Shown here in pieces: positions 24,581-38,073 of a stretch of 48,495 bases of DNA. How positions within the stretch are numbered: the first letter of the stretch is position 1; every line of letters starts with the position of its first letter. Source of the DNA: Xanthobacteraceae bacterium (GTDB lineage: Bacteria; Pseudomonadota; Alphaproteobacteria; Rhizobiales; Xanthobacteraceae); the NCBI GenBank assembly GCA_035601615.1, contig DATNNX010000252.1:1-48495 (forward strand), written 5' to 3'. The notes below the pieces were generated by a model. It was not told where the DNA came from and did no database searches. It saw only the letters and a program-made list of their open reading frames with translations. Made by a program: the position numbers and the translations under genes.

Positions 24581-25831
24581 CTAAGCCGCGGCGGCGAGAT
24601 TGCCGAAGCGCTTCAGGTTCTCCCGCTGCTTTTCATTGCGCGGCGGCAGCTTGAACAGCCGCGCGGCGGTGCCGCCGAGAATGTTGTGCTTGCCCTTCTC
24701 CGAGAGGAACGGCAAGTCGTAGATCGTGGCCGGCAGGTCGAAGTCCCAGTGCGGATAATCCGACGAGTAGAGGAGCTGCGTCTCGGCGTTGATCATGCGG
24801 AACGTGCATTCCAGCGCCTGGCGGTCCTGGATCTCGATCGGCTGCGAGGAATAGTACATGTCGCGCATATAGTCGGACGGCTTCTTCTTGAGGAGCGGTG
24901 CCTCCGACGGGCGCATCATGAATTCGTGATCGAGCCGCTGCATCAAGAACGGAACCCAAGCGAGCCCGGATTCGATCCAGATCACCGGCAGTTTGGGGAA
25001 GCGCTCGCCCATGCCGTTGATCACCCAATTGGTGCAGTGAAGGATGTTGTAGAAGGTGAAGCCGAGCGCGTGCACCGACAGGAAGCGGTTGCAGGCGCGG
25101 AACACCGGCTCGTTCCAGTTCGGCCCGGAGTGGAATGCGAGCGCGAGCCCGCGCTCCTCCAGCATGCGGTAGAGCCGCATATAGGCGTTATCGTTGACTT
25201 GCAGGTGGCGCACCGTCGTGACCATGAAGCCGGTCACGTGCTTGCGGCTGCCGAAGGTCTCGACCTGGCGCACGCAGGCGGCTGGATCAGAGAACGGCAG
25301 GCACAGCATGGAATACATGCGCCCGTCCGCCTCGGGCAGCACCTTCTCGGTGACCCAGCGGTTGTAGGCCCAGCAGAGGTCCGCCTCCATCTCCTTCTGC
25401 GGATGCATGCCGATGTTGAGCATGCCGGTCGGGAACAGGCAGGAGTAGTCCACGCTCATCGCATCCATCCAGCGCTCGCCGAGCTGCACGTCGCGATGCT
25501 TGCCGTTTTGCTCCGTCTTCTCGGAGCGCCGCAGCGGATAGCGGGTCACGCGCCCGCCCATGTCCTGGATGAAGCCCGCGTTGGTCGGCACGACCGAGCC
25601 GCGATCGGTCAGGCCGCGGCCGCCCATGGTCCACTGCCGGAACACGTCGTTTTCCATGTAGGGCAGGATGTCGCTGTAGTGCTCGTTTTCGTAGTGGTGC
25701 GCGTCCACATCGACGATGAGAATATCGTCGAGCTTGCGCCGCACCGCCTGCTTGCGGGCGTGGGCGAGAAGTCTGCTGGTGTTCAACTCATCGACAGAGA
25801 CGCGTCGACCGCGTTCAGCGAGGAGGTCCAT
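24581..25831 (-). CDS. Amidohydrolase-2 family protein, paralog 2
   Basis: LIVDVDAHHYE and YSSDYPHWD motifs, 416 aa. AGGAGA RBS. Collinear similarity to 12897-14144. Confidence 0.85.
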   Translation of the reverse strand: MDLLAERGRRVSVDELNTSRLLAHARKQAVRRKLDDILIVDVDAHHYENEHYSDILPYMENDVFRQWTMGGRGLTDRGSVVPTNAGFIQDMGGRVTRYPLRRSEKTEQNGKHRDVQLGERWMDAMSVDYSCLFPTGMLNIGMHPQKEMEADLCWAYNRWVTEKVLPEADGRMYSMLCLPFSDPAACVRQVETFGSRKHVTGFMVTTVRHLQVNDNAYMRLYRMLEERGLALAFHSGPNWNEPVFRACNRFLSVHALGFTFYNILHCTNWVINGMGERFPKLPVIWIESGLAWVPFLMQRLDHEFMMRPSEAPLLKKKPSDYMRDMYYSSQPIEIQDRQALECTFRMINAETQLLYSSDYPHWDFDLPATIYDLPFLSEKGKHNILGGTAARLFKLPPRNEKQRENLKRFGNLAAAA

Positions 25832-25891
25832 GGTTCGTCTCCTGGGTTTTCCAAATCCTGCTTGCGTCCTGCAGGCAAAGCCGCGTTCGGC

Positions 25892-26299
25892 CTAACGGCC
25901 GGTCCAGCTCTGCCACATGCCGAGTTCGAATACGGCGAGATTGGCAGCCTTGAGCAGCCCGCTCGCGGTGATCATGACTTCGGTGGCGGTGGCGCCGCCA
26001 CGCTGCGGAAGCGGCAGCACCTCATCGCCCGCCTCGACTTGTGCCGCGTAGGTCTTACACACGGCGGCCATGAGCGCCTGCAGCGCCTCGGTGCTCAGTG
26101 CATCGCGCCGGCCGCTGGCAAGCGCCCGCTCGAGCTCGGCGGCAAGCCGCTTCGCCTGTCCGGAGCCGGCACCGTTCGCGGTTTCACCCGCCGGTTTTGG
26201 TTCTCGCTCGACCGACTTGGCGCCTCTGGTGCGCTTTGCGGCCGGCCGCGCCGTCACTGCCGCGCGCCGCGCGGCCTTTGCCGCCCTAGGTGAGGACAT
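25892..26299 (-). CDS. Small conserved hypothetical protein (cassette partner, copy 2) with a basic Ala/Lys/Arg-rich N-terminal extension
   Basis: The C-terminal 80 aa are homologous to 14176-14481. ATG 26299 overlaps the Rieske gene 3' end by 14 nt. An alternative GTG lies at 26257. Confidence 0.6.
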   Translation of the reverse strand: MSSPRAAKAARRAAVTARPAAKRTRGAKSVEREPKPAGETANGAGSGQAKRLAAELERALASGRRDALSTEALQALMAAVCKTYAAQVEAGDEVLPLPQRGGATATEVMITASGLLKAANLAVFELGMWQSWTGR

Positions 26300-26651
26300 A
26301 AACTTCGTCGCCTTTCTCCAGCACCTTGTACTTGCGCAGCTTGAGCTTGCGATCCGACACGCATTCGCCGGTCTTCATGTCGTATTCGTAGCCGTGCCAC
26401 GGACAGACGAAATGCATTTCGTTCTCGGAGAAGTAGAGTCCCTGCGAGGTCTTGTCGGGCAACAGCCGCTCCTCGACTTTGGCGATGGTGAGGCCTTCGC
26501 AAGCGGGGCCGCCCTGGTGCAGGCAGAAATTGCTGTAGGCGTAGAATTGGCCCTCATGCCGGAAGATGCCGATCTCGTTGTCTCCGGCGAAGATGATCCG
26601 GCGGTCGCCGTCCTTGAACTCGGCGATCTTGCCGACATACTGCTCGGCCAT
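26286..26651 (-). CDS. Small Rieske [2Fe-2S] domain protein (121 aa), copy 2
   Basis: CLH and CPWHG ligand motifs. AAGGAGG RBS before ATG 26651 (MAEQYVGKIAEF). Confidence 0.88.
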   Translation of the reverse strand: MAEQYVGKIAEFKDGDRRIIFAGDNEIGIFRHEGQFYAYSNFCLHQGGPACEGLTIAKVEERLLPDKTSQGLYFSENEMHFVCPWHGYEYDMKTGECVSDRKLKLRKYKVLEKGDEVYVLT

Positions 26652-26739
26652 GCTGCGACGCCTCCTTGACGTTTCCTGCGATTGGTTCGCTTGACTTTGG
26701 GATACCCCTTGTGGCGGCGGAATCGGCATCCATCCGAAT

Positions 26740-26752
26740 TTGTATAATACAA
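26740..26752. promoter_or_regulatory. AT-rich inverted repeat TTGTAT-A-ATACAA (candidate operator / -10-like box)
   Basis: Perfect 6+6 inverted repeat with a 1-nt spacer. It is strikingly AT-rich for this genome and lies about 90 nt upstream of Rieske copy 2. Confidence 0.4.
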
Positions 26753-26831
26753 TTGCTGGAACAGAACCAGCGCCAAGGCGTGGTCCGGCATGTCGAACGG
26801 CATGCCTTTGCGAGGCCGAAGCGCCGCGCAA

Positions 26832-27758
26832 TCACGCCATCTTATTGGTCAGCGTTCCGATTTTCTCGATCCAGATTTTGACGACGTCGCCCGCCTTGAG
26901 GAATTCCCCGCGCGCCGCGCCGACCCCGGCGGGCGTGCCGGTGAGAATGATGTCGCCCGGATGGAGCGTCATCCCGCTCGATAATTGCGCGATCTGCTCG
27001 GCCAGATTGAAGATCATATTCTTGCTGTGGGAGTCCTGCTTGAGGACGTCGTTCACCCACAGCTTGAGGCTGAGCTTTTGCGGGTTGCCGATGTCGCGCG
27101 CCGGCACGATCCAAGGGCCCAGCGGGCAGGACCCGTCGAAGGTCTTGTGCTTGGTCCAATCGGACTTGAACGGGGAGGTGTCGCTGATGTTCGCCCGCCG
27201 CCCGCGGTCGCGCGCGGACAGGTCATTTGCCGCGGTATAGCCGGCAACGTAATCGAGCGCCTTGTCCTGGGGCACGTTTTTGGCCGCTCTGCCGATCACC
27301 GCCGCAAGCTCGACCTCCCAATCCATCTCGCTCGAGTACCCGGAAATCTTCACCGTCGCGCTGGGGTCGGCGAGCGTTCGCGCCGCCTTGATGAAATGCC
27401 ATGCCTTGAGGCCTTGGGTGTGCGGATCTGGCTCGGGCGGCCGGTTCATGCGCCGGGCCATTTCCGCGGCATGATCGGCATAGTTGGCGCCGGCGCAATA
27501 GATCGCCGATGGCCAGCGCACGGGTGCCAATAATTTCGCGCGTCCGAGCGGCAGCGGCTTGATGCGGCTCTTGCCCGCCGCCGCAGCCGCCTTGCGCAGG
27601 ACGCCTTGCGCCGTTCTCCAGTCCTCGAGGATGCCGAGCACCGTTGCATAGGCGGCTTTGCCGGTGAGTTTGGCGGCATCGAACACCTTGTCGTCGATCA
27701 CCAGCCCCGCGCGCGCGCCATCGGAGGCTTGGTAGGTCGCGAGCTTGTAGCCGTCCAT
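26832..27758 (-). CDS. Fumarylacetoacetate hydrolase (FAH) family protein
   Basis: The C-terminal FAH fold matches (DWEVELAAVIG, NDLSARD, GDIILTGTPAGVG). I take the start at ATG 27758 (MDGYKLATY), preceded by GGGGAGA. Confidence 0.88.
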   Translation of the reverse strand: MDGYKLATYQASDGARAGLVIDDKVFDAAKLTGKAAYATVLGILEDWRTAQGVLRKAAAAAGKSRIKPLPLGRAKLLAPVRWPSAIYCAGANYADHAAEMARRMNRPPEPDPHTQGLKAWHFIKAARTLADPSATVKISGYSSEMDWEVELAAVIGRAAKNVPQDKALDYVAGYTAANDLSARDRGRRANISDTSPFKSDWTKHKTFDGSCPLGPWIVPARDIGNPQKLSLKLWVNDVLKQDSHSKNMIFNLAEQIAQLSSGMTLHPGDIILTGTPAGVGAARGEFLKAGDVVKIWIEKIGTLTNKMA

Positions 27759-27789
27759 GTGTGTTTCTCCCCCTGTTCCCTCGGCCGCC

Positions 27790-27805
27790 GGCGAAAGCTT
27801 TCGCC
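27790..27805. promoter_or_regulatory. Perfect 16-bp palindrome GGCGAAAGCTTTCGCC in a divergent promoter region
   Basis: The sequence is self-complementary. It lies 32 nt upstream of the FAH start and about 210 nt upstream of the dioxygenase start. Confidence 0.35.
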
Positions 27806-28013
27806 CAATATATCGATCTTGTCGAGCGCGTCGAACTCCCTCCATCTCATCCGTGCATACATCGGCTACCTGGAGCGCGTGTTGCAGGGCTGGCGAGGAC
27901 GAGCCGAAGGGGTAGGATAAAGCGCGGCGAGAGCCGGCATAGCAGCCATCAGCGGCGATATCACGAGGCTTGGTCCGGCGTGCACGCTCGGAGGACAAAA
28001 AGGAGAAAACGTC

Positions 28014-28901
28014 ATGGTCAAAGCGAGACGCGTCGGTCACGCGACCTTCGAGACGCCCGATCTGGAAAAGGCCATCACTTATTACGGCGAGTTCATGGGA
28101 CTGATCGTCGCCGAGCGCGAAAAGGATCGCGCCTTTCTCGCCACCAAGATCGGGCAGCTGGTGATCGAGCTCAACAAGGCGGATCGGGCCCACTGCATCA
28201 AGCTGTCTTTCGAGGTCGCGGCCAATTCCGATTTCGGCGAATTGGCGCGCGAGCTATCCAAGGACGGCGTACGCAGCGAACTGCGCAACGATTCCGTTCC
28301 CGGCATGGGCCAAGTCCTGTCGTTCAAGGACGACAAAGGAACCATTATCGACCTGTTCAAAGACTGGAGCTATCTCGCCAAGCACGCGCAGGTCGCCGGC
28401 GTCGGGCCGCTCAAGCTCGGGCATGTCGCTTTCTTCACGCCCGACATCCAGCGCACGGTTGCGTTCTACGAGCGGGTCCTCGGCTTTCGCGTCTCCGATT
28501 GGATCGGGGATTTTTTCTGCTTCATGCGCTGCAACACGGATCATCACACCGTGAATTTCTTCACCGGGCCCGACGTGAAGCTGCATCACATCGCCTTCGA
28601 GCTCAAGGATTTCATGCATCTCCAGAACTCTTGCGACGTTATGGGCCAGAAACAGGTGCCGATCATCTGGGGTCCCTTGCGGCATGGGCCGGGGCACAAC
28701 GTCGCCACCTACCATCGCAATCCGGATGACCAGGTCGTTGAATTTTTCTCCGAGCTCGATCAAATGATCGACGAGGAGCTCGGCTATTTCGAGCCGCGGC
28801 CCTGGCACCGCGACACGCCGCAGCGGCCCAAGCGCTGGACGCCGGGCAAGACCAACGTGTGGGGCCCCTCGCCGGAGGAGGATTTCCACCGGACACAGTG
28901 A
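28014..28901 (+). CDS. Two-domain VOC-superfamily extradiol ring-cleavage dioxygenase
   Basis: Two glyoxalase-like modules. Candidate Fe ligands are LGHVAF, LHHIAF and VVEFFSE. AAAGGAGAA RBS. Confidence 0.85.
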   Translation: MVKARRVGHATFETPDLEKAITYYGEFMGLIVAEREKDRAFLATKIGQLVIELNKADRAHCIKLSFEVAANSDFGELARELSKDGVRSELRNDSVPGMGQVLSFKDDKGTIIDLFKDWSYLAKHAQVAGVGPLKLGHVAFFTPDIQRTVAFYERVLGFRVSDWIGDFFCFMRCNTDHHTVNFFTGPDVKLHHIAFELKDFMHLQNSCDVMGQKQVPIIWGPLRHGPGHNVATYHRNPDDQVVEFFSELDQMIDEELGYFEPRPWHRDTPQRPKRWTPGKTNVWGPSPEEDFHRTQ

Positions 28902-28938: not shown

Positions 28939-29715
28939 CTAAGGGCGCACCGCCGGCGTTTCGACCGGCATGCCGCGCGCGCGCCACATCAGGTAAAGCT
29001 CGAGATCGACAAGTTCGCTCGCTCCGTAGGGATAAGAGACCGCGCGCATGCCGAACAGACAGTTGCGCAGCCGCCGCTGCAGCGATCCGAGCGTTTGCCA
29101 CTCGAGGCGATAGAGCGGATATCCGGTCGGATGGCCCTGCGGGATCGCCGCGCCGGCAAGCTTTTGGCCCCAATTGTCGTCGTGGCACTGCGCGCAGGCG
29201 AGATTGAGCTGGCCTTGGCGCTCTATGAACATCGCGCGGCCGGCTTCCAGAAAAGGCCTTATCCGCGCGTCATCCGCGATGTCGATCGGCATGCCGCGCG
29301 ATTGCTCCCCGATATAGGCTGTGAGCGCCAGCAGCTCCTTGCTTTCGAAGGCAAGCGGGGTCGCGCGCTGCTGTTGAGTGCGGCACATATTGATCCGCTG
29401 TTCGAGATCGACCGGGCGGCCGCGCACCGCGTTGAATGCGGGATAGCGCGCCGCCACGCCTTTCATGCTCGTGCCCGCGTCGCCGTGGCAGTCCGCGCAT
29501 GATTTGCCGGCAGAACCCTCCTTACGCTGCCAGAGGGTCTCGCCGTCGAGCACCCACAACGTGGCGGGATTGGCGCTATCGTCGTCCTGCATCGCGCGTG
29601 TCTCTCGCGCCATGAAGTCGTAACCCGACTTGCGCTCCGAAAACGGAATGTCCGCCGCAGCCGCCGCAGCGCCCAAGGCGGCAAGCATGAAAACAGCAGC
29701 GGCCGCCCGCGTCAT
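28939..29715 (-). CDS. soxA: Dihaem cytochrome c SoxA
   Basis: Signal peptide, two haem motifs (CADCH and CAQCH) and the conserved GYPLYRLEWQTLGSLQRRLRNC region. ATGA overlap with soxZ. Confidence 0.9.
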   Translation of the reverse strand: MTRAAAAVFMLAALGAAAAAADIPFSERKSGYDFMARETRAMQDDDSANPATLWVLDGETLWQRKEGSAGKSCADCHGDAGTSMKGVAARYPAFNAVRGRPVDLEQRINMCRTQQQRATPLAFESKELLALTAYIGEQSRGMPIDIADDARIRPFLEAGRAMFIERQGQLNLACAQCHDDNWGQKLAGAAIPQGHPTGYPLYRLEWQTLGSLQRRLRNCLFGMRAVSYPYGASELVDLELYLMWRARGMPVETPAVRP

Positions 29716-30032
29716 TCGACCGTGATATTGACGGACTCGGCCGCCGTAAAGCCGTTGTCGCCGGTCCATTCGAAGCTCAGCGTGCCGCTTTCGCCGGCAA
29801 CGGTGAAAAAGGTCAGAAACGGATTGGCGGCGATAGCCGGGAACAGCTCGGCGCGGAAAATTTCCTCTCCATTATATTTGCAGGTGAATTCGGTGATGAT
29901 GTCGCGCGGCACCGGCTTCCCGGTACTGTCAGGGCGAAAGCCGGTCTCCATGACATGCGAGATCAGCGTCTTGATCTCGATCACTTCGCCGCGCTTGGCC
30001 TTCGCCGGCGCATTGATGAGGGCGCGCGCCAT
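29712..30032 (-). CDS. soxZ: Sulfur-carrier complex subunit SoxZ
   Basis: 106 aa. KRGEVIEIKTLISHVMETGFRPDSTGKPVPRDII matches my recollection of SoxZ closely. Confidence 0.88.
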   Translation of the reverse strand: MARALINAPAKAKRGEVIEIKTLISHVMETGFRPDSTGKPVPRDIITEFTCKYNGEEIFRAELFPAIAANPFLTFFTVAGESGTLSFEWTGDNGFTAAESVNITVE

Positions 30033-30034
30033 GC

Positions 30035-30523
30035 TCAGCTCCCTTCGAGACACGCGGCAAGGGTGACGACAACCTCGACCTCGTCCGACCAGAACGAGCC
30101 GTCGCTCATCTGCGCCACGGCAACGACCTTCTGGGTATCGGCGAGGCGAATGCGGGTCGAGAAGCTCGCCCGCCCGGCGCGTGGGCCGAAACCAGCGCCG
30201 ATGACGTTCGGCTGCGGATTTTTCTCGGTGAAGACGTGGATCGCCTTGACGTGGTCGTCTTGCGTCATCGGGCTTTCGCAGGACACCGTGAGCGGAACGG
30301 CATTGCCGTTCTCGATCAATGCGGGCACGTCGATCTTGACCTTGCCCTTCTTGAGCGGCGCCTCGCCGACGACGTTTCGGATCGCGGCGTGCATCGATGC
30401 CGGCGTGGCGGAGCTTTGCTCGACCGCAAGCGGCAACACGATGCCTGTGGCGCCGGCGAGCGCTGCCGTCTCGAGCAAGAAGCGGCGCCGTGTCCTCTGC
30501 AGCGTGCCGTCGTCGCGGGTCAT
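30035..30523 (-). CDS. soxY: SoxY-related carrier protein with variant C-terminal arm (...VTLAACLEGS instead of ...GGCGG)
   Basis: Tat signal QRTRRRFLLETAALAGA. The SoxY core matches (ENGNAVPLTVS, VKAIHVFTEKNP). I verified the C-terminus by hand translation of 30035-30076. GAGGAG RBS before ATG 30523. Confidence 0.85.
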   Translation of the reverse strand: MTRDDGTLQRTRRRFLLETAALAGATGIVLPLAVEQSSATPASMHAAIRNVVGEAPLKKGKVKIDVPALIENGNAVPLTVSCESPMTQDDHVKAIHVFTEKNPQPNVIGAGFGPRAGRASFSTRIRLADTQKVVAVAQMSDGSFWSDEVEVVVTLAACLEGS

Positions 30524-30528
30524 GGTGC

Positions 30529-31029
30529 TCACTCCTCGCGCAGCGTCGCGAGATAGGCGACGACATCCTCGATCTGTTCCGCGCTCAGCACCGGCTTGCC
30601 TTGAAACGCCGGGGCGACGCGCGTGAGACCATCGACTCGATAATAGGGCGGCATGATCGTGTTCGGGTTGAGCCGGCTCGCATCCACGATCCGCAGCCGC
30701 AGCTGACCTTCAGACCAGCGCGCTCCGCTTCCTTTGAGGTCTGGTGCGAGTGTGCCCTGGAACTTCTCCTTCGGGAAGGGCCCGTTGTGGCAGAGCAGGC
30801 AGAGCCCCTCCTGCCGGTTAACGACGATACTGCGCCCGCGTTCCACATCGCCCTTTGCGCCGGTCAACGAATGCGGGATTGCGTCTCCAACGACGGTATA
30901 AGGACGCAGTTGCTCTTCGGCCCGCGCGCCATCGCATGCTGCGATCATCGCGGCGAGCGCGATCGCCGCGATGCGCGCGCCGCAACGCTCAGCCAAAAAC
31001 TTCGGTGGTGATCGTTTTGAACCAGGCAT
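30529..31029 (-). CDS. soxX: Monohaem cytochrome c SoxX
   Basis: Haem motif CLLCH and the conserved MPPYYR and [13 protein letters not shown] regions. The ATG 31029 start overlaps soxF by 41 nt. A TTG at 30996 is an alternative. Confidence 0.85.
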
Positions 31030-32254
31030 TCGCGAAAGTGGCTTCTAGCGCGCGCGTGGCGTTCGGCGCATCGAGCGGGCTCACGCCGGCCGTCCCTTCG
31101 ATGTCCTTGATCTGACCATCCGCCGGCCGGTACACGCCTTCGATCGAGATGCCGTAGTCGGGCGCCACCAAGCTGTAGCAGGTGTTGATGAGCCTCGGCT
31201 CATCCGGCGTGCCGCCGGCAAGAAGCTTCGCCACCGCGGCGGCGCAGACCTTGGCCTGGGCATTGGCCGAGAACGCGGATTTCGGCATCGCGCCTGCGAT
31301 CGAGGCGTCGCCGACGACGTGGATATTGGGCTGCAATTTGGATTCGAACGTGACAGCGTCGATCGGGCACCAACCGGTGCGATCGGCGACGCCGACGATC
31401 TCGGCGATGCGGCCCGCCTTCTGCGGCGGAATGACGTTTGCGACATCGGCCTTGTGGCGGTCGAAATCCGTGATCAGCGTCATCGCACCAACGTCGACCG
31501 AAGTAACCTTGCCGCCCTTCGATAACGATACCCATTCGAGATTGGGATAGAGCGCTTTCCACGCGTTCTCGAACAGGCGCTGCTTGGAGAAGGCGTCCTT
31601 GGCATCGAGGATGATCAGCTTCGATTTCGGCTTCTTGGTTTTGAGGTAGTAGGCGATCAGGCTTGCCCGCTCGTAAGGACCTGGCGGGCAGCGGAAGGGA
31701 TTGGCGGGCGCCGAGATCACGACGGTGCCGCCGTCCTCCATCGCCTCGAGCTGCCGGCGCAGTAGCAGCGTCTGCTCGCCGGCTTTCCAGGCATGCGGCA
31801 TGCGTTCGGCGGCCGTCTCGGTATAGCCGGGCAGGGCGTCCCAGCGGATGTCGATGCCAGGCGAGAGCACTAGGCGGTCATAGGCAAGCTCCGCGCCATT
31901 GCCAAGCGTCACCGTCCGTCGCTGGGGATCGATGGCGGTCGCGGGCGAAAACTGGACGGCCACCTGATCGGTCGCGAACCGATCGTAGCCGAATTGTTGT
32001 GCGGCGAGCTCACGCAACCCGGCGATCACCAAGTTGCTGAACGGGCAGGCGATGAACGTGCGGTTCGCCTCGACCAGGGTCACGCTGATGCGCGGATCGA
32101 TGCGTTTGATGAAACGGGCGCAGGTCGCGCCCCCAAATCCGCCGCCCACCACGACGACGCGAGCGCCTGCGCCTTGCGCAATGGCCGGGAGCGGCAACAA
32201 GGCCGCGCCGGCAGTGACGGTTTTGAGGAATTCACGCCGGTTTGTGCGCCTCAT
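30989..32254 (-). CDS. fccB: Flavocytochrome c sulfide dehydrogenase flavoprotein subunit (FccB/SoxF)
   Basis: Tat signal [14 protein letters not shown] fingerprint [14 protein letters not shown] and the conserved [13 protein letters not shown] region. GGAGG RBS. Confidence 0.9.
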
Positions 32255-32270
32255 GATCGGCCTCCATTCC

Positions 32271-32576
32271 TCAATCTTTTTGCGCGCCGTACCAGGCTGC
32301 GATTGCTTTGACCTCGTCTTCGGAAAATCCTTTGGCGATTCGCTCCATCACGGTCGATGGAAGCTGTCCCGTCTTGAACGCCTGCATGGCCGCGACGATG
32401 TCCGCGGGATTGCGGCCGATCAGTCCTGGCACGGCGGTGTCCGCCGCGGGCGTACTCGAATGACAGCCGGAACAGGAGAGCGCGCCGGGCGGTGCTTCGG
32501 TCAATCCGGCCGCCGAAACATGACCGGCAAAGATAAATCCTAAGGCGGCAACACTCCCGATGCGTGTGGCGTTCAT
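32271..32576 (-). CDS. Small monohaem c-type cytochrome (FccA/SoxE-like single domain)
   Basis: Signal peptide [23 protein letters not shown], haem motif CSGCH and MQAFKTG...MERIAKG. It ends 16 nt upstream of fccB. Confidence 0.85.
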
Positions 32577-32620: not shown

Positions 32621-34774
32621 TTATGCGCTGCTGAGATCGTGGTTCTTGAGCGGCAGGGACCGGATGCGCTTGCCGGTCGCCGCGAAGAGGGCGTTGCACA
32701 AGGCGGGGGCGAGCGGCGGCACGGCGGTTTCGCCGATCCCGCCCCAGCCCTCGCCCGGGACGATGACGGTTTCGATCCGCGGCATGTCCGCCAGACGCAG
32801 CATCGGATAGTCGTGGAAATTCGCCTGCTCGACCCGTCCGTCCCTGATGGTGATCTCGCCGTAAAGCGCCGCCGTCAGCGCGAACACGACTGCGCTCTCG
32901 GTCTGCATTTCGATGGTGAGCGGGTTGACCACGTGCCCGGCGTCAATCGCAGAGACGACGCGGTGCACGCGCACTTTGCCGTCGCTGGCGACAGAGGCCT
33001 CGACCACCTGCGCGCAGATGCTGTTTTGCGAGTTATGGAACGCGATGCCGCGGAATGCGCCCCCCGGCGGCGACGTGCCCCATCCGGCACGGGTCGCAAC
33101 GGCGTTGAGCACCGCAAGCTCTCTCGGCTTTCCCGCCAACAGCTTGCGCCTGAACAGATAGGGATCGGCACCGGCCGCAAAGGCCATCTCGTCGACGAAG
33201 CTTTCCTTGAAGAACGCGTTCTGCGAATGGTTGACGCTGCGCCAGACCCCGACAGGAACGTGGGTGTTGCGCATCGCGAAATCGAGGCGATAGTTCGGCA
33301 CGCCATAAGGCATGTCTTCCAAAAGGCCTTGGAGAAAATTCCTGTCGACCCCGAACTGCATCACGCGCGGAGATACCGCCGCAATGATGGACTGGCCGGC
33401 GATGCGGATTGACCAGGCGATCGGCGTGCCGGCGGCGTCGAGCCCGGCGACGAGCCTTGCCATTGCCACCGGACGATAAAAGTCGTGGCGGATGTCCTCT
33501 TCGCGCGTCCAGACGAGCTTCACCGGCTGGCCGACCTCTTTCGCGATCAGCACCGCTTGGCGCACGAAGTCCTGAAAGATCCCCCGTCGGCCGAAGCCCC
33601 CGCCGAGCATCATTTTGTGAATCACGACTTTGCTCGGCGGCACGCCGGCGGCATCGGCCGCGATCGCGAGCGCGGTCTCGCCGTCCTGGGTCGGCGCCCA
33701 GACCTCGACCACATCCGCTGTCACCTGCGCGGTGCAGTTCTGCGGCTCCATCGTGGCGTGAGCGAGAAAGGGCACCTCGTAATCCGCTTCGACCCGCTTG
33801 ATCGTATGCGCGAGCGCGCGCTCGACATCGCCGTCGTTGCGGCCGACGCGCGCATCCGTGGCGGTAAGCCCGGCTTGCAGGTGCGCGCGAATGCTGCCGC
33901 TGGAGACGGTGGAGTTCTCACCAAAATCCCAGCTCACCGGCAGCGCCTGCGCCGCCCGTTGCGCCTGCCACCAGCTGTCTGCGATCACGGCGACAGCATC
34001 CGCGAGCTTCACCACGCGGCGGACGCCTTTCATGCCCGACATCTTGCTCTCGTCGACCCATCTGAGCGAACCCTTGAACACCGGGCATTGGATGATCGCC
34101 GCGTAGAGCATGTTCGGCAGCTGAACGTCGATGGCGTAGATCGGCTTGCCCGCAACCTTGTCGGGAACATCGAGACGCCTTTGCCGCGTGCCGATCAGCT
34201 TCCAGTCCTTCGGGTCCTTCAAGGCGACCTGCGTGGGGGGAGCGATATCGGCCGCCGCCGCTGCGATCCGGCCGAACGTGATCCTGCGGCCGCTCGGGCG
34301 GTGGGTGATCACGCCTTGCGCGGCGGTGCATTCGGCATCGGGTACGTTCCAGCGCGCGGCGGCGGCCGCGATCAGCAACGCGCGCGCGGTAGCGCCGGCG
34401 CGGCGCAAATCATTCTGGGAGGCGCTGACGGAGCGGCTCGCGCCCGTCGACATGTTGCCCCAGACGCGGTCCCGCTTGCGATTCTCGTGCGGTGGCGCAA
34501 ACTCGGCCTTCACCTTGCTCCAGTCGCATTCGAGCTCTTCCGCCACCAGCATCGGCAAGGCGGTAAAGCTGCCTTGACCCATCTCCGATTTGGCGACGCG
34601 GATGATCACGGTCTCGTCGGGCTCGATCACGATCCAGGCGGTGATCTCGCGCGCGGAGGTTGCGGCGTGCGTGGCGCGCGGGCCGAACGGAATGTCGAAG
34701 CCGAGTACCAGCGAGCCGCCGACCGCGGCCACGCTGGCGAGAAAGGAGCGGCGGTCGAGGCGAACGCGGCTCAC
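32621..34774 (-). CDS. Tat-exported molybdopterin-binding large subunit, IorB/aldehyde-oxidoreductase-like (pair 1)
   Basis: Inferred GTG start at 34774, forming a GTGA overlap with the small-subunit stop. Tat motif [16 protein letters not shown]. The family region [40 protein letters not shown] is present. Confidence 0.85.
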
Positions 34775-35244
34775 GGCAGTCTCGCTCCGCTCACGCGCCG
34801 GCCCGCGACGGCGTGGATCGCGGCGCGGATGCGCTGGTAGGTGCCGCAGCGGCAGATATTCGTGATGGCGGCGTCGATCTCCGCGTCGCTCGGATGAGGC
34901 TTCTCCTCGAGCAACGCGGCCACCGCCATCATCATTCCGCTCTGGCAATAGCCGCATTGCGGAACCTCGAGATCGAGCCACGCCTGCTGCACGGGATGGA
35001 GCGCGCCGTTTCGTCCCAGGCCTTCGATGGTGGTGATGTGCTTGTCAGCGGCCGTGCTCACCGGAACCGAACAAGAACGGATCGGCGCGCGGTCGATGTG
35101 GACCGTGCAGGCCCCGCATTGCGCGATCCCGCAGCCGTATTTGGTGCCGAGGAGCCCGAGCGTGTCCCGCAGCACCCAGAGCAGCGGCGTCTCCGGATCG
35201 ACATCGACGTCGTGGGCCCGTCCATTCACTGTAAGACGCGCCAT
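34771..35244 (-). CDS. [2Fe-2S]-binding small subunit, IorA/CoxS-like (pair 1)
   Basis: The two cluster motifs are [12 protein letters not shown] and [10 protein letters not shown]...CRCGTY. GGGAGAG RBS before ATG 35244. Confidence 0.9.
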
Positions 35245-35391
35245 GGGTCTCTCCCGACCGAGCTTCAAAACGGCGGTTCGATCGACCTGAGATTAGTTCA
35301 AAAAAATCGCGCGCGCAAAATTTGCCGACGCGAACGTAAGCGTCAACGCCTCGGGCGCGGGCCGCGCGTCTGAATATCTTTCCACGATGAA

Positions 35392-35416
35392 AGCGGCGGC
35401 CGCATCGGCCGCCGCT
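35392..35416 (-). terminator. GC-rich hairpin between the two IorAB-like pairs (possible terminator or processing site)
   Basis: AGCGGCGGCCG-cat-CGGCCGCCGCT, an 11-bp perfect stem starting 10 nt after the pair-2 large-subunit stop. The downstream U-tract is poor. Confidence 0.45.
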
Positions 35417-35425
35417 TCGTTCTCG

Positions 35426-37606
35426 TTACGCGAACGAGATGTTGTGGCTCTTGAGCGGCATCGAGCGGATGCGCTGGCCCGTGGCGGCAAAGTACGCGTT
35501 GAGCACGGCCGGCGCGGCGACGCAGATCGTCGGCTCGCCGACGCCGCCCCAGAAGCCGCCCGACGGTATGAGGACCGTTTCCACCTTCGGCATCTCGGCA
35601 ATCCGCATGATGTCGTAGCTGTCGAAGTTCTGCTGCTCGATGCGTCCATCCTTGACGGTGCAGACGCCGTTGAATAGCGCGGTCAGCCCATACGCCGCGG
35701 AGCCCGCAACCTGCCGTTCGATTTGGGCCGGATTGACGGCGTATCCCGGGTCGGTGGCGGCAACGATGCGGTGGATCTTGATCTTGCTGCCGCTCACCAC
35801 CGAGATTTCCGCCGCCCCGGCCACATAGCTGCCATAGGCCATCTGCTGGGCAAGCCCGCGATAGACGCCTTGCGGGGCAGGCTGTCCCCAGCCGATCTTC
35901 TCGGCCACGGCATTGAGCACCGCGAGGTGCTTGGGATATTTCGCCATCAGCTTGCGGCGAAACTCGAGCGGATCCTCTCCGGCCGCGTGCGCGAGCTCAT
36001 CCATGAAGCACTCGAGATAGATCGCGTTTTGATTGTTGTTGACGCCGCGCCAGAAGCCCGGCGTGACGTGCGGGTTTCGCATGGCATGATCGATCAGCAG
36101 ATTGGGAACGTCGTAACCGAACGCGCCTTCGGAGCCGCCGGGATTGAGCCCCTGGAAGGTCGCGGGGTCGCGACCGTTCTGCAGCCGCGCAGGAGCGAGG
36201 GTGGCCAGGATCGACTGGCCGGAAATCCGCATGTGCAAGCCGGTGAGATTGCCGTTGGCATCGAGCGCACCGGTGAGCTTGCACTGCGTGATCGGATGGT
36301 ACGTGTCCTGCGTCATATCCTCTTCGCGCGACCAGAGAAGCTTGATCGGGGTGCCCGGCACCTGCTTTGCGATCAGCACCGCTTGGGTGACGTAATCGGT
36401 CCGTCCGCGCCGGCCGAAACCGCCGCCGAGCAGGAACTTGTGCACGTCGCACTTCGCGATCGGCAGCCCCGACGCCTCGGAGGTCGCGGCCAACGCCGCT
36501 TCCGCATTCTGCGAGCTCGTCCACACCTCACATTTGTCGGGCGTGTAGACCGCGGTTGCGTTCATCGGCTCCATGCACGCATGCGCCTGGTACGGATAGC
36601 CGTAGACTGCCTCGACCTTCTTCGCCGCGCCGGCGATCGCTGCTTTCACGTCGCCCTTTTGGTTGCCGACGAAAGCTTCCTGCGCATCGAGTCCGGCCTT
36701 GAGCAGCTCGCCGATCGAGGCGCTGCTGACCTTGGCGTTCTCGCCCTCGTCCCACACGATCGGTAGCGCTTCGAGCGCGGTCTTGGCCCGCCACCAGCTG
36801 TCGCCGACGACGGCGACGGCGGTCTGACCGACCTGCACGACGTGCTTCACGCCCTTGTTGCCGGCGATCTTGGCGGCGTCGAAGCTTTTCACTTTGCCGC
36901 CGTGAACGGGGCACGCCTTCACCGCGGCATACAACATGCCGGGCAGCCTCACGTCGATCGCGTAAGGCGCCTTGCCGGTCAGCTTGTCCGGCGTATCGAG
37001 CCGCTTGGCCGGCTTGCCGGCGATCTTCCAGTCCTTGGGATCCTTGAGCTTGACCTCGGCGGGCGGCTCGAGCTTTGCCGCGGCCTCGGCTACCTTGCCA
37101 TAGGTGGTGGTGCGCCCGGACGGCTTGTGCGTGATGACGCTATTCTCGGCCGTGCACTCGGCGGTCGGCACGTTCCACGTATTGGCGGCGGCCTGGATCA
37201 GCATCATGCGCGCGGCAGCGCCGCCCTTGCGCACGTATTCGTTCGACTCGCGGATGCCGCGGCTGCCGGTAGTCGAGAAATCGCCCCACACGCGCTTGCG
37301 GGCGACGTTCTGGCCCGGCGTCGGCTGATCGGCTGTGACCTTCGACCAGTCGCATTCGAGCTCCTCGGCGACGAGCTGCGCGAGCCCCGTCAGCGTGCCT
37401 TGGCCCATCTCGGCCCGGGCGATGCGAATGGCCACGGTGTCGTCGGGGCGGATCACCACCCAGGCATTGATCTCGGGCGTCGCGTCCTGCGCGCGCGCGA
37501 CCGGCGGGCCAGCGAAGGGAAGCTCGAAGCCGAGCGTCAAGCCGCCGCCCAAGGCGGCTGCGCTCACGACGAAACTGCGGCGATCGATGTTCGCTACGTG
37601 ATTCAT
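35426..37606 (-). CDS. Tat-exported molybdopterin-binding large subunit, IorB-like (pair 2)
   Basis: ATG 37606 (MNHVANIDRRSFVVSAAALGG, Tat motif) is preceded by GGGAGG. Collinear similarity to pair 1 ([40 protein letters not shown]). Confidence 0.87.
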   Translation of the reverse strand: MNHVANIDRRSFVVSAAALGGGLTLGFELPFAGPPVARAQDATPEINAWVVIRPDDTVAIRIARAEMGQGTLTGLAQLVAEELECDWSKVTADQPTPGQNVARKRVWGDFSTTGSRGIRESNEYVRKGGAAARMMLIQAAANTWNVPTAECTAENSVITHKPSGRTTTYGKVAEAAAKLEPPAEVKLKDPKDWKIAGKPAKRLDTPDKLTGKAPYAIDVRLPGMLYAAVKACPVHGGKVKSFDAAKIAGNKGVKHVVQVGQTAVAVVGDSWWRAKTALEALPIVWDEGENAKVSSASIGELLKAGLDAQEAFVGNQKGDVKAAIAGAAKKVEAVYGYPYQAHACMEPMNATAVYTPDKCEVWTSSQNAEAALAATSEASGLPIAKCDVHKFLLGGGFGRRGRTDYVTQAVLIAKQVPGTPIKLLWSREEDMTQDTYHPITQCKLTGALDANGNLTGLHMRISGQSILATLAPARLQNGRDPATFQGLNPGGSEGAFGYDVPNLLIDHAMRNPHVTPGFWRGVNNNQNAIYLECFMDELAHAAGEDPLEFRRKLMAKYPKHLAVLNAVAEKIGWGQPAPQGVYRGLAQQMAYGSYVAGAAEISVVSGSKIKIHRIVAATDPGYAVNPAQIERQVAGSAAYGLTALFNGVCTVKDGRIEQQNFDSYDIMRIAEMPKVETVLIPSGGFWGGVGEPTICVAAPAVLNAYFAATGQRIRSMPLKSHNISFA

Positions 37607-37620
37607 GGCTGCCTCCCCGC

Positions 37621-38073
37621 TCACGCGCTCGCGGCAGCGGCGTGGATCGCCGCGCGCACCTGCTGGTAGGTGCCGCAGCGGCAGATATTGGTGATGTTGC
37701 TGTCGATGTCGGCGTCGGTCGGTTTCGGCTTGTCCTTGAGCAGCGCCGCCACCGCCATGATCATGCCGCACTGGCAATAACCGCATTGCGGCACGTCGTG
37801 ATCGAGCCAGGCCTGCTGCACCTTGTGCAGCACGCCGTTCTGCGCCAATCCCTCGATGGTAGTGATCTGACGGCCCTCGACTGCGCTCAACGGCACCGAG
37901 CACGAGCGCATCGCAATGCCGTCGACATGCACGCTGCAGGCGCCGCACTGGGCGATGCCGCAGCCATATTTGGTGCCGGTCAGTCCAAGCGTGTCGCGCA
38001 ACACCCACAGCAGCGGGGTCTCGGGGTCGACATCGACCTGGTGAGTCCTTCCATTGACGGTGAGTTCAGCCAT
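37621..38073 (-). CDS. [2Fe-2S]-binding small subunit, IorA-like (pair 2)
   Basis: [48 protein letters not shown] is near-identical in its N-terminal third to pair 1. GGAGG RBS. Confidence 0.9.

What the first reader, a model, noticed from the sequence alone, without database searches (positions are those of the whole stretch)
30035..30523. SoxY homolog whose swinging-arm terminus is ...VTLAACLEGS instead of the canonical ...GGCGG
Hand translation of the 3' end gives E-V-V-V-T-L-A-A-C-L-E-G-S-stop. The rest of the protein is collinear with SoxY (Tat signal, ENGNAVPLTVS, VKAIHVF). The carrier cysteine is kept, but the flexible Gly arm is replaced by Ala-Ala-Cys-Leu-Glu. From memory, protein-family catalogues list a functionally uncharacterised 'SoxY-related AACIE arm' group, and AACLE looks like that class. 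A different arm implies different partner enzymes or a different covalently carried species.
Basis: partly seen in the sequence, partly recalled or inferred. Interest (0 to 1): 0.65.

Follow-up and report, generated by a model that had tools for sequence, protein, structure and literature searches.

The report
SoxY carrier with AACLE arm
This gene encodes an ordinary member of a named but never-tested family of periplasmic sulfur-carrier proteins whose cysteine arm reads AACLE instead of GGCGG; the family sits beside its own SoxXA cytochromes and a molybdenum enzyme, not beside the usual thiosulfate-oxidation partners.

Summary
ORF 30035-30523 (-) encodes a 162-aa, Tat-signalled SoxY homologue ending ...VVVTLAACLEGS. 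No frameshift restores GGCGG, and 118 of the 120 closest database homologues carry AACLE, the other two AACVE and SACLE.

It scores 204.5 bits on NCBIfam TIGR04487 'SoxY-related AACIE arm protein' (cut-off 172). It fails the true-SoxY model (114.9 against 125).

The gene lies in a tightly packed minus-strand cluster: IorA2-IorB2, IorA1-IorB1, cytochrome c, FCSD flavoprotein, SoxX, SoxY', SoxZ, SoxA.
- Of 63 related loci with full flanks, 62 keep IorAB, 62 FCSD and 62 SoxX+Z+A. None has SoxB.
- All 14 more distant loci (39-62% identity) keep IorAB-SoxXY'ZA.
- Twelve of 20 congeners with the module, and a whole other family (f34), lack SoxB and true SoxY.

The cluster type was described in Starkeya novella in 2013 (not induced by thiosulfate). 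Of the two B. diazoefficiens soxY homologues only soxY1 is needed for thiosulfate oxidation. This scan has already logged the same module at least nine times on other genomes.

Verdict: a new member of a known, functionally untested kind. The most likely role is carrier for a SoxB-independent periplasmic sulfur oxidation in which the molybdenum enzyme is the partner. That mechanism is inferred, not shown.

The parts
30035..30523 (-). soxY' : 162-aa SoxY-family carrier subunit with an AACLE arm (the finding)
   Evidence: ORF and translation. TIGR04487 scores 204.5 bits against cut-off 172, and PF13501 gives E 4e-33. The AF2 model of residues 41-159 has pLDDT about 90 and matches Paracoccus SoxY 2OXH_D with target TM 0.86.
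30473..30496 (-). Twin-arginine export motif (R-T-R-R-R-F-L-L, residues 10-17)
   Evidence: Read directly from the translation. R12 and R13 are invariant in alignment A3.
30038..30061 (-). C-terminal carrier arm L-A-A-C-L-E-G-S, with Cys158 at 30050-30052
   Evidence: Cys158 aligns with the carrier Cys of P. pantotrophus SoxY (VTIGGC against VTLAAC). Cys is invariant in 58 diverse family members. pLDDT drops from 94 to 42 after the last strand, which ends at residue 154, so the tail is predicted flexible.
29712..30032 (-). soxZ partner, starting 2 nt after the soxY' stop
   Evidence: TIGR04490 scores 91 bits (cut-off 76) and PF08770 gives E 4.6e-29. Present in all related loci.
28939..29715 (-). 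soxA, a dihaem cytochrome; its ATG overlaps the soxZ stop (ATGA)
   Evidence: TIGR04484 scores 240.5 bits (cut-off 110). It aligns full length to Rhodovulum SoxA 1H31 (E 7e-49), with both CxxCH motifs and the haem-ligand Cys (RLRNC against RFRGC) conserved.
30529..31029 (-). soxX, a monohaem cytochrome (CLLCH); its stop lies 5 nt before the soxY' ATG; the exact start is uncertain
   Evidence: TIGR04485 scores 81.7 bits (cut-off 61).
30989..32254 (-). Flavocytochrome-c sulfide dehydrogenase flavoprotein (FccB/SoxF-like), Tat-signalled
   Evidence: Pfam FCSD_central and FCSD-flav_bind. E 6e-144 to 5N1T_A, and E about 1e-129 to 3VRD_B and 1FCD_A. Present in 62 of 63 full-flank loci but missing from 5 of 14 distant loci.
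32271..32576 (-). Small monohaem cytochrome c (101 aa, Sec signal) between IorB1 and FCSD
   Evidence: Translation. Only a weak Cytochrome_CBB3 hit. A recognisable homologue occurs in 23 of 63 loci.
32621..34774 (-). IorB1: Tat-exported molybdopterin-binding large subunit of a xanthine-oxidase-family enzyme; its GTG start overlaps the IorA1 stop (GTGA)
   Evidence: Pfam MoCoBD_1 and MoCoBD_2. The nearest solved structure is 8GY3_C, the aldehyde dehydrogenase large subunit (E 7e-65, full length). The start was read. A C-terminal GIGET motif sits at the position of the family's catalytic Glu (the assignment is from my own knowledge).
34771..35244 (-). IorA1: [2Fe-2S] small subunit
   Evidence: Pfam Fer2_2 and Fer2. 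It reaches no NCBIfam equivalog cut-off.
35426..37606 (-). IorB2: second Tat-exported Mo large subunit, 52% identical to IorB1; this copy is the orthologue of the single IorB in most related loci
   Evidence: In single-copy loci the IorB is 64-79% identical to IorB2 but only about 50% to IorB1.
37621..38073 (-). IorA2: second [2Fe-2S] small subunit
35391..35417 (-). 12-bp GC-rich hairpin directly after the IorB2 stop, followed by a 180-nt gap; a possible boundary between two transcription units
   Evidence: This is a pattern match only.

Best explanation
The ORF encodes SoxY', the cysteine-bearing subunit of a periplasmic SoxY'Z' carrier. The carrier belongs to a self-contained, SoxB-independent module. 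Its core is IorA-IorB (a Tat-exported xanthine-oxidase-family molybdoenzyme) plus SoxX-SoxY'-SoxZ-SoxA. In this lineage the module also has an FCSD flavoprotein, a small cytochrome c and a second IorAB pair.

Shown here:
- Family membership.
- The SoxY fold with a flexible C-terminal tail carrying an invariant Cys.
- A SoxA that keeps both haem motifs and the Cys haem ligand.
- Periplasmic targeting signals.
- Tight gene packing.
- Near-obligate linkage to IorAB across at least 90 species-level loci.
- Independence from SoxB and true SoxY.

Inferred:
1. SoxXA oxidatively couples a reduced sulfur species to Cys158. Where FCSD is present, FCSD supplies sulfane sulfur from sulfide.
2. The AAC[ILVT][ED] arm then presents the bound sulfur to the molybdoenzyme instead of to SoxB/SoxCD.
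3. The molybdoenzyme oxidises it by oxygen-atom transfer from water and passes the electrons through its [2Fe-2S] clusters to c-type cytochromes.
4. A four-electron oxidation of the outer sulfur to the sulfite level would give an unstable Cys-S-SO2- adduct. That adduct could release sulfite without a hydrolase, which would explain why SoxB is dispensable. This last step is chemical speculation.
For: Family: TIGR04487 scores 204.5 against 172; TIGR04488 scores 114.9 against 125. The arm is conserved in 120 of 120 close homologues. In 58 diverse members Cys is invariant. GGC-arm and AAC-arm proteins fall on opposite sides of a supported branch (15 of 16 GGC in one clade).

Fold: TM 0.86 to Paracoccus SoxY, with Cys aligned to the carrier Cys.

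Loading enzyme: SoxA E 7e-49 to 1H31, with the haem Cys ligand conserved. FCSD E 6e-144 to a solved sulfide dehydrogenase.

Linkage: of 63 full-flank loci, 62 have IorA+IorB, 62 have SoxX+Z+A and 0 have SoxB. All 14 loci at 39-62% identity from other families keep IorAB-SoxXY'ZA. Unbiased clustering of neighbours finds no other conserved gene.

Independence from the canonical system: 12 of 20 congeners with the module lack SoxB and true SoxY, five of them 95-100% complete. In family f34, 7 of 9 genomes have the module, 0 of 9 have SoxB, and three tested have no SoxC.

Literature: of the two B. diazoefficiens soxY homologues only soxY1 is essential for thiosulfate oxidation (PMC5748708). The second sox cluster of S. 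novella, with its XO-family enzyme, is not induced by thiosulfate (PMC3797975).

Selection: dN/dS 0.24-0.31.
Against: No experiment exists on any member. Xanthine-oxidase-family enzymes are not known to act on sulfur or on protein-bound substrates. The nearest solved relative of IorB is an aldehyde dehydrogenase, and IorA/IorB reach no functional equivalog cut-off. In S. novella the SoxXA and SoxYZ proteins of the second cluster were not detected under any condition tested (PMC3797975), so the inducing substrate is unknown. The window's own MAG is only 70% complete, so absence of SoxB in this organism itself is not shown. One full-flank locus (L041) lacks IorAB. The acidic residue after the Cys is not universal: family f34 ends in AACVVL, AACVIG or AACLIG. 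Any role assigned to the Glu is therefore weak.
Confidence: 0.55

Rival explanations
1. The module is a spare or isoenzyme set for ordinary thiosulfate oxidation. SoxX'A' and SoxY'Z' would widen the substrate range and rely on SoxB/SoxCD encoded elsewhere.
For: SoxX, SoxZ and SoxA all pass the NCBIfam 'true Sox' cut-offs. All Bradyrhizobium-like genomes of the phylum sample that have the module also have SoxB elsewhere. The idea was raised in the literature cited by PMC3797975.
Against: Twelve of 20 module-bearing congeners lack SoxB and true SoxY. All seven module-bearing f34 genomes lack SoxB. SoxB is never within 10 kb of the module. Only soxY1 is essential for thiosulfate oxidation in B. 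diazoefficiens (PMC5748708). The S. novella cluster is not induced by thiosulfate (PMC3797975). The idea does not explain the near-obligate IorAB linkage.
Confidence: 0.1
2. The molybdoenzyme oxidises an ordinary small molecule such as an aldehyde or N-heterocycle. SoxXA would serve mainly as its cytochrome electron acceptor, and SoxY'Z' as an accessory or regulatory thiol protein. The module would then not be a sulfur-oxidation pathway.
For: The nearest solved IorB relative is the large subunit of a three-subunit aldehyde dehydrogenase (8GY3_C); that its third subunit is a multihaem cytochrome c is from my own knowledge, not from the search. In the five FCSD-less loci (L098-L101, L108) SoxX and SoxA were the only cytochromes detected with my query set. 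In the closest relatives the module neighbours aromatic-degradation genes.
Against: SoxA keeps the Cys haem ligand that is specific to sulfur-coupling SoxA/TsdA enzymes. The carrier Cys is invariant. A genuine sulfide dehydrogenase is present in 62 of 63 close loci. The aromatic-degradation neighbours are confined to the closest lineage.
Confidence: 0.15
3. SoxY'Z', loaded by FCSD or SoxXA, is a periplasmic persulfide donor. It would install or repair the terminal sulfido ligand (Mo=S) that xanthine-oxidase-family cofactors need.
For: The pairing with XO-family enzymes is strict. Those enzymes need a labile Mo=S ligand (my own knowledge). An earlier scan note reports loci with only IorAB plus SoxY'Z' (not checked here).
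Against: Other exported XO-family enzymes manage without such a system. By my own knowledge sulfuration normally happens in the cytoplasm before Tat export. Four to six dedicated redox proteins is a heavy cost for cofactor repair.
Confidence: 0.1
4. The gene is a decaying, non-functional duplicate of soxY.
For: The S. novella cluster shows very low expression (PMC3797975).
Against: dN/dS is 0.24-0.31. The arm and the Cys are conserved across thousands of homologues. Genes are coupled with overlapping stop and start codons. In f34 genomes it is the only SoxY present.
Confidence: 0.03

Closest known systems
NCBIfam TIGR04487 'SoxY-related AACIE arm protein' (SoxY_para_1, model type 'exception')
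   Same: The protein matches the full model (positions 2-146 of 146) above the curated cut-off. It has the same length, Tat signal and ...VTLAAC[ILV]E terminus. NCBI already gives this name to near-identical Xanthobacteraceae MAG proteins.
   Different: Nothing of substance. Leu replaces Ile after the Cys, as in 118 of the 120 closest homologues. The family has a name but no tested function.
Canonical SoxY of the thiosulfate-oxidising Sox system (Paracoccus pantotrophus SoxYZ, PDB 2OX5/2OXG/2OXH; TIGR04488)
   Same: Same fold (target TM 0.86) and about 35% identity. It has a Tat signal, a SoxZ partner gene immediately downstream, and a Cys at the same position near the end of a flexible C-terminal tail.
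   Different: The arm reads AACLEGS, not GGCGG. The score is below the equivalog cut-off. It falls in a separate clade. It is encoded with IorAB and never with SoxB. The SoxB-linked SoxY of a congener is only 39% identical.
Second sox cluster of Starkeya novella: soxX2Y2Z2A2F2 (Snov_1982-1977) plus XO-family Mo enzyme Snov_1975/1976 (Kappler and Nouwens 2013, PMC3797975)
   Same: The gene content is the same: SoxXA, SoxYZ, a flavocytochrome c and a xanthine-oxidase-family molybdoenzyme, with no SoxB or SoxCD. The paper treats it as one operon of unknown role.
   Different: Gene order differs: here the order is IorAB - cyt c - FCSD - X - Y - Z - A, and IorAB is duplicated. I could not retrieve the S. 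novella SoxY2 sequence, so its arm type is untested.
soxY2 of Bradyrhizobium diazoefficiens (Masuda et al. 2010, as cited in PMC5748708)
   Same: B. diazoefficiens SZCCT0423 carries an AAC-arm soxY' (60% identical) in the same IorAB-FCSD-SoxXY'ZA cluster (L090). It also has a canonical SoxB-linked soxY.
   Different: That genome has a third SoxY-domain gene, a fused SoxYZ, and the 2010 paper is not held. The equation soxY2 = AAC-arm gene is therefore probable, not verified.
Membrane-bound aldehyde dehydrogenase complex (PDB 8GY3), as the nearest solved relative of the partner IorB
   Same: Full-length similarity of the Mo subunit (E 7e-65) and a separate [2Fe-2S] small subunit. That it lacks an FAD subunit and hands its electrons to cytochrome c is from my own knowledge.
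   Different: Here the cytochromes next door are SoxXA and a monohaem cytochrome c, and a cysteine carrier protein is co-encoded. The substrate is unknown.

Membership tests
TIGR04487 SoxY-related AACIE-arm protein | Whole-protein score above the curated cut-off (172 bits) | tested here: met
   204.5 bits, E 6.2e-61, model positions 2-146 of 146.
TIGR04487 SoxY-related AACIE-arm protein | C-terminal A-A-C-[ILV]-E type arm in place of GGCGG | tested here: met
   The terminus is ...VTLAACLEGS. The same arm occurs in 118 of 120 closest homologues.
SoxY superfamily (Pfam PF13501) | SoxY domain and fold, with a carrier Cys near the C-terminus | tested here: met
   PF13501 scores 114.4 bits. Cys158 aligns with the Paracoccus carrier Cys. 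Foldseek gives TM 0.86 to 2OXH_D.
SoxY superfamily (Pfam PF13501) | Tat signal peptide and an adjacent soxZ partner | tested here: met
   RRRFLL motif. soxZ starts 2 nt after the stop; TIGR04490 scores 91 against 76.
True thiosulfate-oxidation SoxY (TIGR04488) | Score above the 125-bit cut-off and a GGCGG arm | tested here: not met
   114.9 bits. The arm is AACLE. No frame gives GGCGG.
True thiosulfate-oxidation SoxY (TIGR04488) | Genomic association with soxB (and soxCD) | tested here: not met
   No SoxB within 10 kb in 63 full-flank loci or in 14 distant loci. Twelve of 20 module-bearing congeners have no SoxB. The own MAG has none, but it is only 70% complete.
Any SoxY-type carrier | Covalent sulfur adducts on the arm cysteine | not testable with these tools
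   Needs purified protein and mass spectrometry.
IorAB-SoxXY'ZA module (as in the second sox cluster of S. novella) | Co-encoded XO-family molybdoenzyme, SoxXA and SoxYZ without SoxB/SoxCD | tested here: met
   Window gene map. The same content is described in PMC3797975.
TIGR04557 quinoprotein-dehydrogenase-associated fused SoxYZ carrier | Fused SoxY-SoxZ polypeptide scoring above 140 bits | tested here: not met
   63 bits, with SoxY and SoxZ on separate genes.

The most novel reading that the evidence does not exclude
The AAC-arm SoxY'Z' delivers cysteine-bound sulfane sulfur into a periplasmic xanthine-oxidase-family molybdoenzyme. That enzyme would replace both SoxCD and SoxB. This would be a third, undescribed way of finishing carrier-based sulfur oxidation. 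It would also be the first xanthine-oxidase-family enzyme shown to act on a sulfur atom held by a protein. The module is widespread in soil Xanthobacteraceae and in freshwater Burkholderiales.
Probability: 0.3. Interest if true: 0.8.

Novelty: new member of a known kind. Interest (0 to 1): 0.4.

Why it matters
Annotation pipelines label these proteins 'sulfur-oxidizing protein SoxY', SoxZ, SoxA and SoxX. Soil and freshwater MAGs that carry only this module can therefore be scored as thiosulfate oxidisers with no supporting evidence. The family is very common: 8000 or more hits in the protein collection. It is present in 20 of 24 sampled congeners, in Bradyrhizobium, and in small-genome freshwater Burkholderiales-like genomes.

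At least one large SoxY phylogeny discarded every sequence without a GGC motif (PMC11237559), so the family has fallen outside recent surveys. Working out its substrate would fill a real gap in periplasmic sulfur metabolism of abundant soil bacteria. It would also test whether a molybdenum hydroxylase can work on a carrier-bound substrate. For this particular window, however, the gene is a routine instance of something already named and already logged repeatedly.

Tried and rejected
- **Frameshift or sequencing error at the 3' end:** rejected. The other frames give no GGCGG, and the homologues agree.
- **SoxB or true SoxY elsewhere in the own genome:** none found, but the MAG is 70% complete, so this is not decisive. 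I used congeners and a phylum-wide sample instead.
- **Further conserved neighbours (regulator, transporter, hydrolase, cofactor chaperone):** all-against-all clustering of ORFs from 21 diverse loci found only IorA, IorB, FCSD, SoxX/cyt c, SoxY', SoxZ, SoxA and their antisense shadows.
- **Functional naming of IorAB:** no NCBIfam equivalog cut-off is reached.
- **Literature:** the string 'AACIE' appears in no relevant paper. Searches for soxY with isoquinoline oxidoreductase, and for soxX2/Y2/Z2/A2, gave only unrelated hits. Masuda et al. 2010 is not held.
- **First attempt to scan genomes with the 58-sequence alignment:** failed for lack of a conserved stretch. A 12-sequence alignment worked.
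- **Promoter scan:** no sigma-70-like site in the operon region.
- **Role for SoxC-like paralogues:** the own genome has one and SoxB-less congeners have several, but f34 genomes with the module have none. They are therefore not an obligate partner.
Full report
**1. The observation**

The minus-strand ORF at 30035-30523 is real. It translates to 162 aa:
MTRDDGTLQRTRRRFLLETAALAG...ENGNAVPLTVSCESPMTQDDHVKAIHVF...SDEVEVVVTLAACLEGS*

- The ATG at 30523 lies 5 nt after the soxX stop and has a GGAG 8 nt upstream. A GTG three codons further up is the only alternative start.
- Residues 11-17 form a twin-arginine export motif.
- The other two frames of the 3' end contain nothing like GGCGG.
- Of the 120 closest proteins in a 5.8-billion-sequence collection (75-91% identity), 118 end in AACLE, one in AACVE and one in SACLE.
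- Pairwise dN/dS against four related loci is 0.24-0.31.

The terminus is therefore a conserved feature, not an error.

**2. What the protein is**

Against NCBIfam the protein scores 204.5 bits on TIGR04487, 'SoxY-related AACIE arm protein' (cut-off 172). It scores 114.9 bits on the true-SoxY equivalog TIGR04488 (cut-off 125). Pfam PF13501 (SoxY) gives E 4e-33. NCBI already uses the TIGR04487 name for near-identical Xanthobacteraceae MAG proteins, whereas JGI calls them 'sulfur-oxidizing protein SoxY'.

The protein aligns to Paracoccus pantotrophus SoxY (2OX5, E 8e-14), with Cys158 on the carrier cysteine (VTLAAC against VTIGGC). An AlphaFold2 model has pLDDT of about 90 over residues 41-159. 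It superposes on 2OXH_D with a target-normalised TM-score of 0.86. Confidence falls to 42 after the last strand, which ends at residue 154, so the arm is still predicted to be a flexible tail.

I searched representatives of 50%-identity clusters (1.8 billion proteins).
- 2027 had E ≤ 0.001.
- Among the best 150, about 76 of the sequences I could score had an [AGS][AS]C arm, mostly AAC[ILVT][ED]. Fourteen had GGC.
- In a maximum-likelihood tree, 15 of 16 GGC proteins form one supported clade (97/82). That clade includes the SoxB-linked SoxY of a congener and of B. diazoefficiens. Seventy-three of 76 AAC-type proteins lie on the other side.

**3. Surroundings in the window**

The gene sits in a packed minus-strand cluster.

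| Gene | Coordinates | Note |
|---|---|---|
| IorA2 | 37621-38073 | [2Fe-2S] small subunit |
| IorB2 | 35426-37606 | Tat motif IDRRSF |
| Hairpin and gap | 35391-35417 | 12-bp GC hairpin, then a 180-nt gap |
| IorA1 | 34771-35244 | [2Fe-2S] small subunit |
| IorB1 | 32621-34774 | GTGA overlap with IorA1; Tat motif LDRRSF; 52% identical to IorB2 |
| Cytochrome c | 32271-32576 | monohaem |
| FCSD flavoprotein | 30989-32254 | E 6e-144 to the solved sulfide dehydrogenase 5N1T_A |
| SoxX | 30529-31029 | |
| SoxY' | 30035-30523 | the finding |
| SoxZ | 29712-30032 | |
| SoxA | 28939-29715 | ATGA overlap with SoxZ |

SoxX, SoxZ and SoxA pass the NCBIfam equivalog cut-offs. SoxA aligns over its full length to Rhodovulum SoxA (1H31, E 7e-49). 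Both CxxCH motifs and the cysteine haem ligand are conserved (RLRNC against RFRGC), so the coupling enzyme looks competent.

The closest solved relative of IorB1 is the large subunit of an aldehyde dehydrogenase complex (8GY3_C, E 7e-65). Neither IorA nor IorB reaches any functional equivalog cut-off. Every product has a Tat or Sec signal, or a signal-bearing partner, so the whole set is periplasmic. This last point is read from the sequences and is an inference.

**4. Is the neighbourhood conserved?**

A scan of one genome per prokaryotic species returned 600 or more matches. I kept the best 80 loci: Bradyrhizobium, Pseudolabrys, other Xanthobacteraceae, and a few MAGs labelled Rokubacteria, Methylomirabilota or Burkholderiales.

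Of the 63 loci with at least 5 kb on both sides:
- 62 contain SoxX+SoxZ+SoxA.
- 62 contain IorA+IorB.
- 62 contain FCSD.
- 23 contain a recognisable copy of the small cytochrome.
- None contains SoxB.

The one exception for IorAB is L041.

I then took 14 more distant loci (SoxY' 39-62% identical) from an even sample of 400 high-quality genomes of the phylum. All 14 have IorA-IorB next to SoxX-SoxY'-SoxZ-SoxA. FCSD is missing from five of them. The arms read SACTE, AACTE, AACIE, SACID, AACLIG, AACVIG and AACVVL. The constant core is therefore IorAB plus SoxXY'ZA. FCSD and the small cytochrome are optional, and the acidic residue after the Cys is common but not universal. All-against-all clustering of ORFs from 21 diverse loci found no further conserved neighbour.

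**5. Relation to the canonical Sox system**

In 24 congeners:
- 20 have a TIGR04487-grade gene.
- 10 have a true SoxY. Exactly those 10 have SoxB, intact or broken, beside it.
- 12 have the AAC-arm module with neither SoxB nor true SoxY. Five of these genomes are 95-100% complete.

In the phylum sample, family f34 has the module in 7 of 9 genomes and SoxB in 0 of 9. The module's SoxY' is their only SoxY-family gene. Three genomes tested have no SoxC. Bradyrhizobium-like genomes and small Burkholderiales-like genomes have both systems, at unlinked loci.

The window's own MAG has no SoxB or true SoxY, but it is only 70% complete. The module therefore does not depend on SoxB in general.

**6. Literature**

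[quoted passage not shown] Its SoxAX and SoxYZ proteins were not detected, and transcripts were very low on thiosulfate, methanol or glucose.
- Masuda et al. (2017, PMC5748708) state that B. diazoefficiens has two soxY homologues and that only soxY1 is essential for thiosulfate oxidation.
- A B. diazoefficiens genome in my set has three SoxY-domain genes: a SoxB-linked GGCGG soxY, the AAC-arm gene in the IorAB cluster (L090), and a fused SoxYZ of the quinoprotein-associated type. soxY2 is therefore probably, but not verifiably, the AAC-arm gene. The 2010 paper is not held.
- A 2024 SoxY phylogeny removed all sequences without a GGC motif (PMC11237559).
- A 2026 survey counted more than 1000 'insulated' soxX/Y/Z/A paralogues without characterising them (PMC13500833).
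- This scan's own notebook lists at least nine earlier notes on the same module in other genomes, plus notes on this window's operon and its tandem IorAB. I used one of them as a lead to the S. novella paper and read that paper myself.

**7. How it most likely works**

Shown:
- A SoxY-fold carrier with an invariant cysteine on a flexible tail.
- Its own SoxZ.
- A SoxXA with an intact active-site signature.
- A genuine sulfide dehydrogenase flavoprotein.
- One or two exported XO-family molybdoenzymes.
- Translational coupling of the genes.
- Independence from SoxB.

Inferred:
1. SoxXA, helped by FCSD where present, loads a reduced sulfur species on Cys158.
2. The AAC-type arm is tuned to a different active-site channel, that of the molybdoenzyme.
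3. The molybdoenzyme oxidises the bound sulfur with water-derived oxygen and sends electrons to c-type cytochromes.
4. Oxidation to the sulfite level would give a labile Cys-S-SO2- adduct that can release sulfite without a hydrolase. This would account for the missing SoxB. It is my chemical reasoning, not a result.

I give about 0.55 to the general statement: a dedicated carrier of a SoxB-independent periplasmic sulfur-oxidising module that partners with the Mo enzyme. I give about 0.3 to the specific Mo-on-carrier chemistry.

Rivals:
- A thiosulfate isoenzyme set that uses SoxB in trans (0.1).
- A small-molecule dehydrogenase with SoxXA as its cytochrome (0.15).
- A periplasmic donor of the Mo=S ligand (0.1).
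- A decaying duplicate (0.03).

**8. Verdict**

The protein is a routine member of a curated, named family. Its gene cluster type has been in the literature since 2013. What remains unknown is the function. This particular window adds only a lineage-specific tandem duplication of the IorAB pair. Novelty: a new member of a known kind. Interest is moderate (0.4). It rests on the open biochemical question and on the risk of over-calling thiosulfate oxidation in metagenomes, not on anything unusual in this sequence.

Noticed in passing
window 32621-38073 (-): There are two tandem IorAB pairs. IorB2, the upstream copy, is the orthologue of the single IorB in most related loci (64-79% identity). IorB1, the copy fused into the sox-like operon, is only about 50% identical to them and 52% to IorB2. 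Two copies were seen in 11 of 83 loci, mostly the closest relatives. A GC-rich hairpin at 35391-35417 and a 180-nt gap separate the pairs.
   Followed up: partly
G000 contig C76:11319-12563 (L112 5311-6630), and congeners G018 and G011: The own genome encodes a Tat-signalled SoxC-like molybdoenzyme (505 bits, cut-off 420) followed by a small cytochrome c, with no other sox gene nearby. SoxB-less congeners G018 and G011 each carry 5-7 such SoxC-like paralogues above the cut-off.
   Followed up: partly
L096 6116-6937 (-) (B. diazoefficiens SZCCT0423): This is a third SoxY-domain gene in B. diazoefficiens. It is a 273-aa fused SoxY-SoxZ with an internal ...KASGGCSAP arm, next to a metallo-beta-lactamase-fold gene and a periplasmic binding protein. 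It looks like the TIGR04557 quinoprotein-associated carrier type.
   Followed up: partly
L103-L107 and L109 (family f34 genomes): These module SoxY' proteins end in AACVVL, AACVIG or AACLIG. They have no acidic residue after the Cys and score 153-170 bits, just under the TIGR04487 cut-off. Yet they sit in the same IorAB-cyt c-FCSD-SoxXY'ZA cluster, so the curated cut-off misses part of the family.
   Followed up: partly
window 24581-28901: An aromatic-degradation-like set lies just downstream of soxA: an extradiol dioxygenase (28014-28901, +), a fumarylacetoacetate-hydrolase-family gene, a Rieske ferredoxin and an amidohydrolase-fold gene. It is syntenic with the module only in the closest relatives (L012, L013, L015-L017, L019, L026, L032, L033, L093-L095).
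   Followed up: no
L041 and L051: L041 has full 10-kb flanks with FCSD-SoxXY'ZA but no IorAB. It is the single exception among 63 loci. L051, labelled Burkholderiales, has a rearranged order: SoxY'-SoxZ-IorA-IorB-SoxX-SoxA, without FCSD.
   Followed up: no
window 30529-31029 (-): The SoxX N-terminus contains ...AAMIAAC..., which resembles a lipoprotein signal-peptidase II site. SoxX may therefore be membrane-anchored. The true start codon is uncertain because the ORF overlaps the FCSD stop by 40 nt.
   Followed up: no
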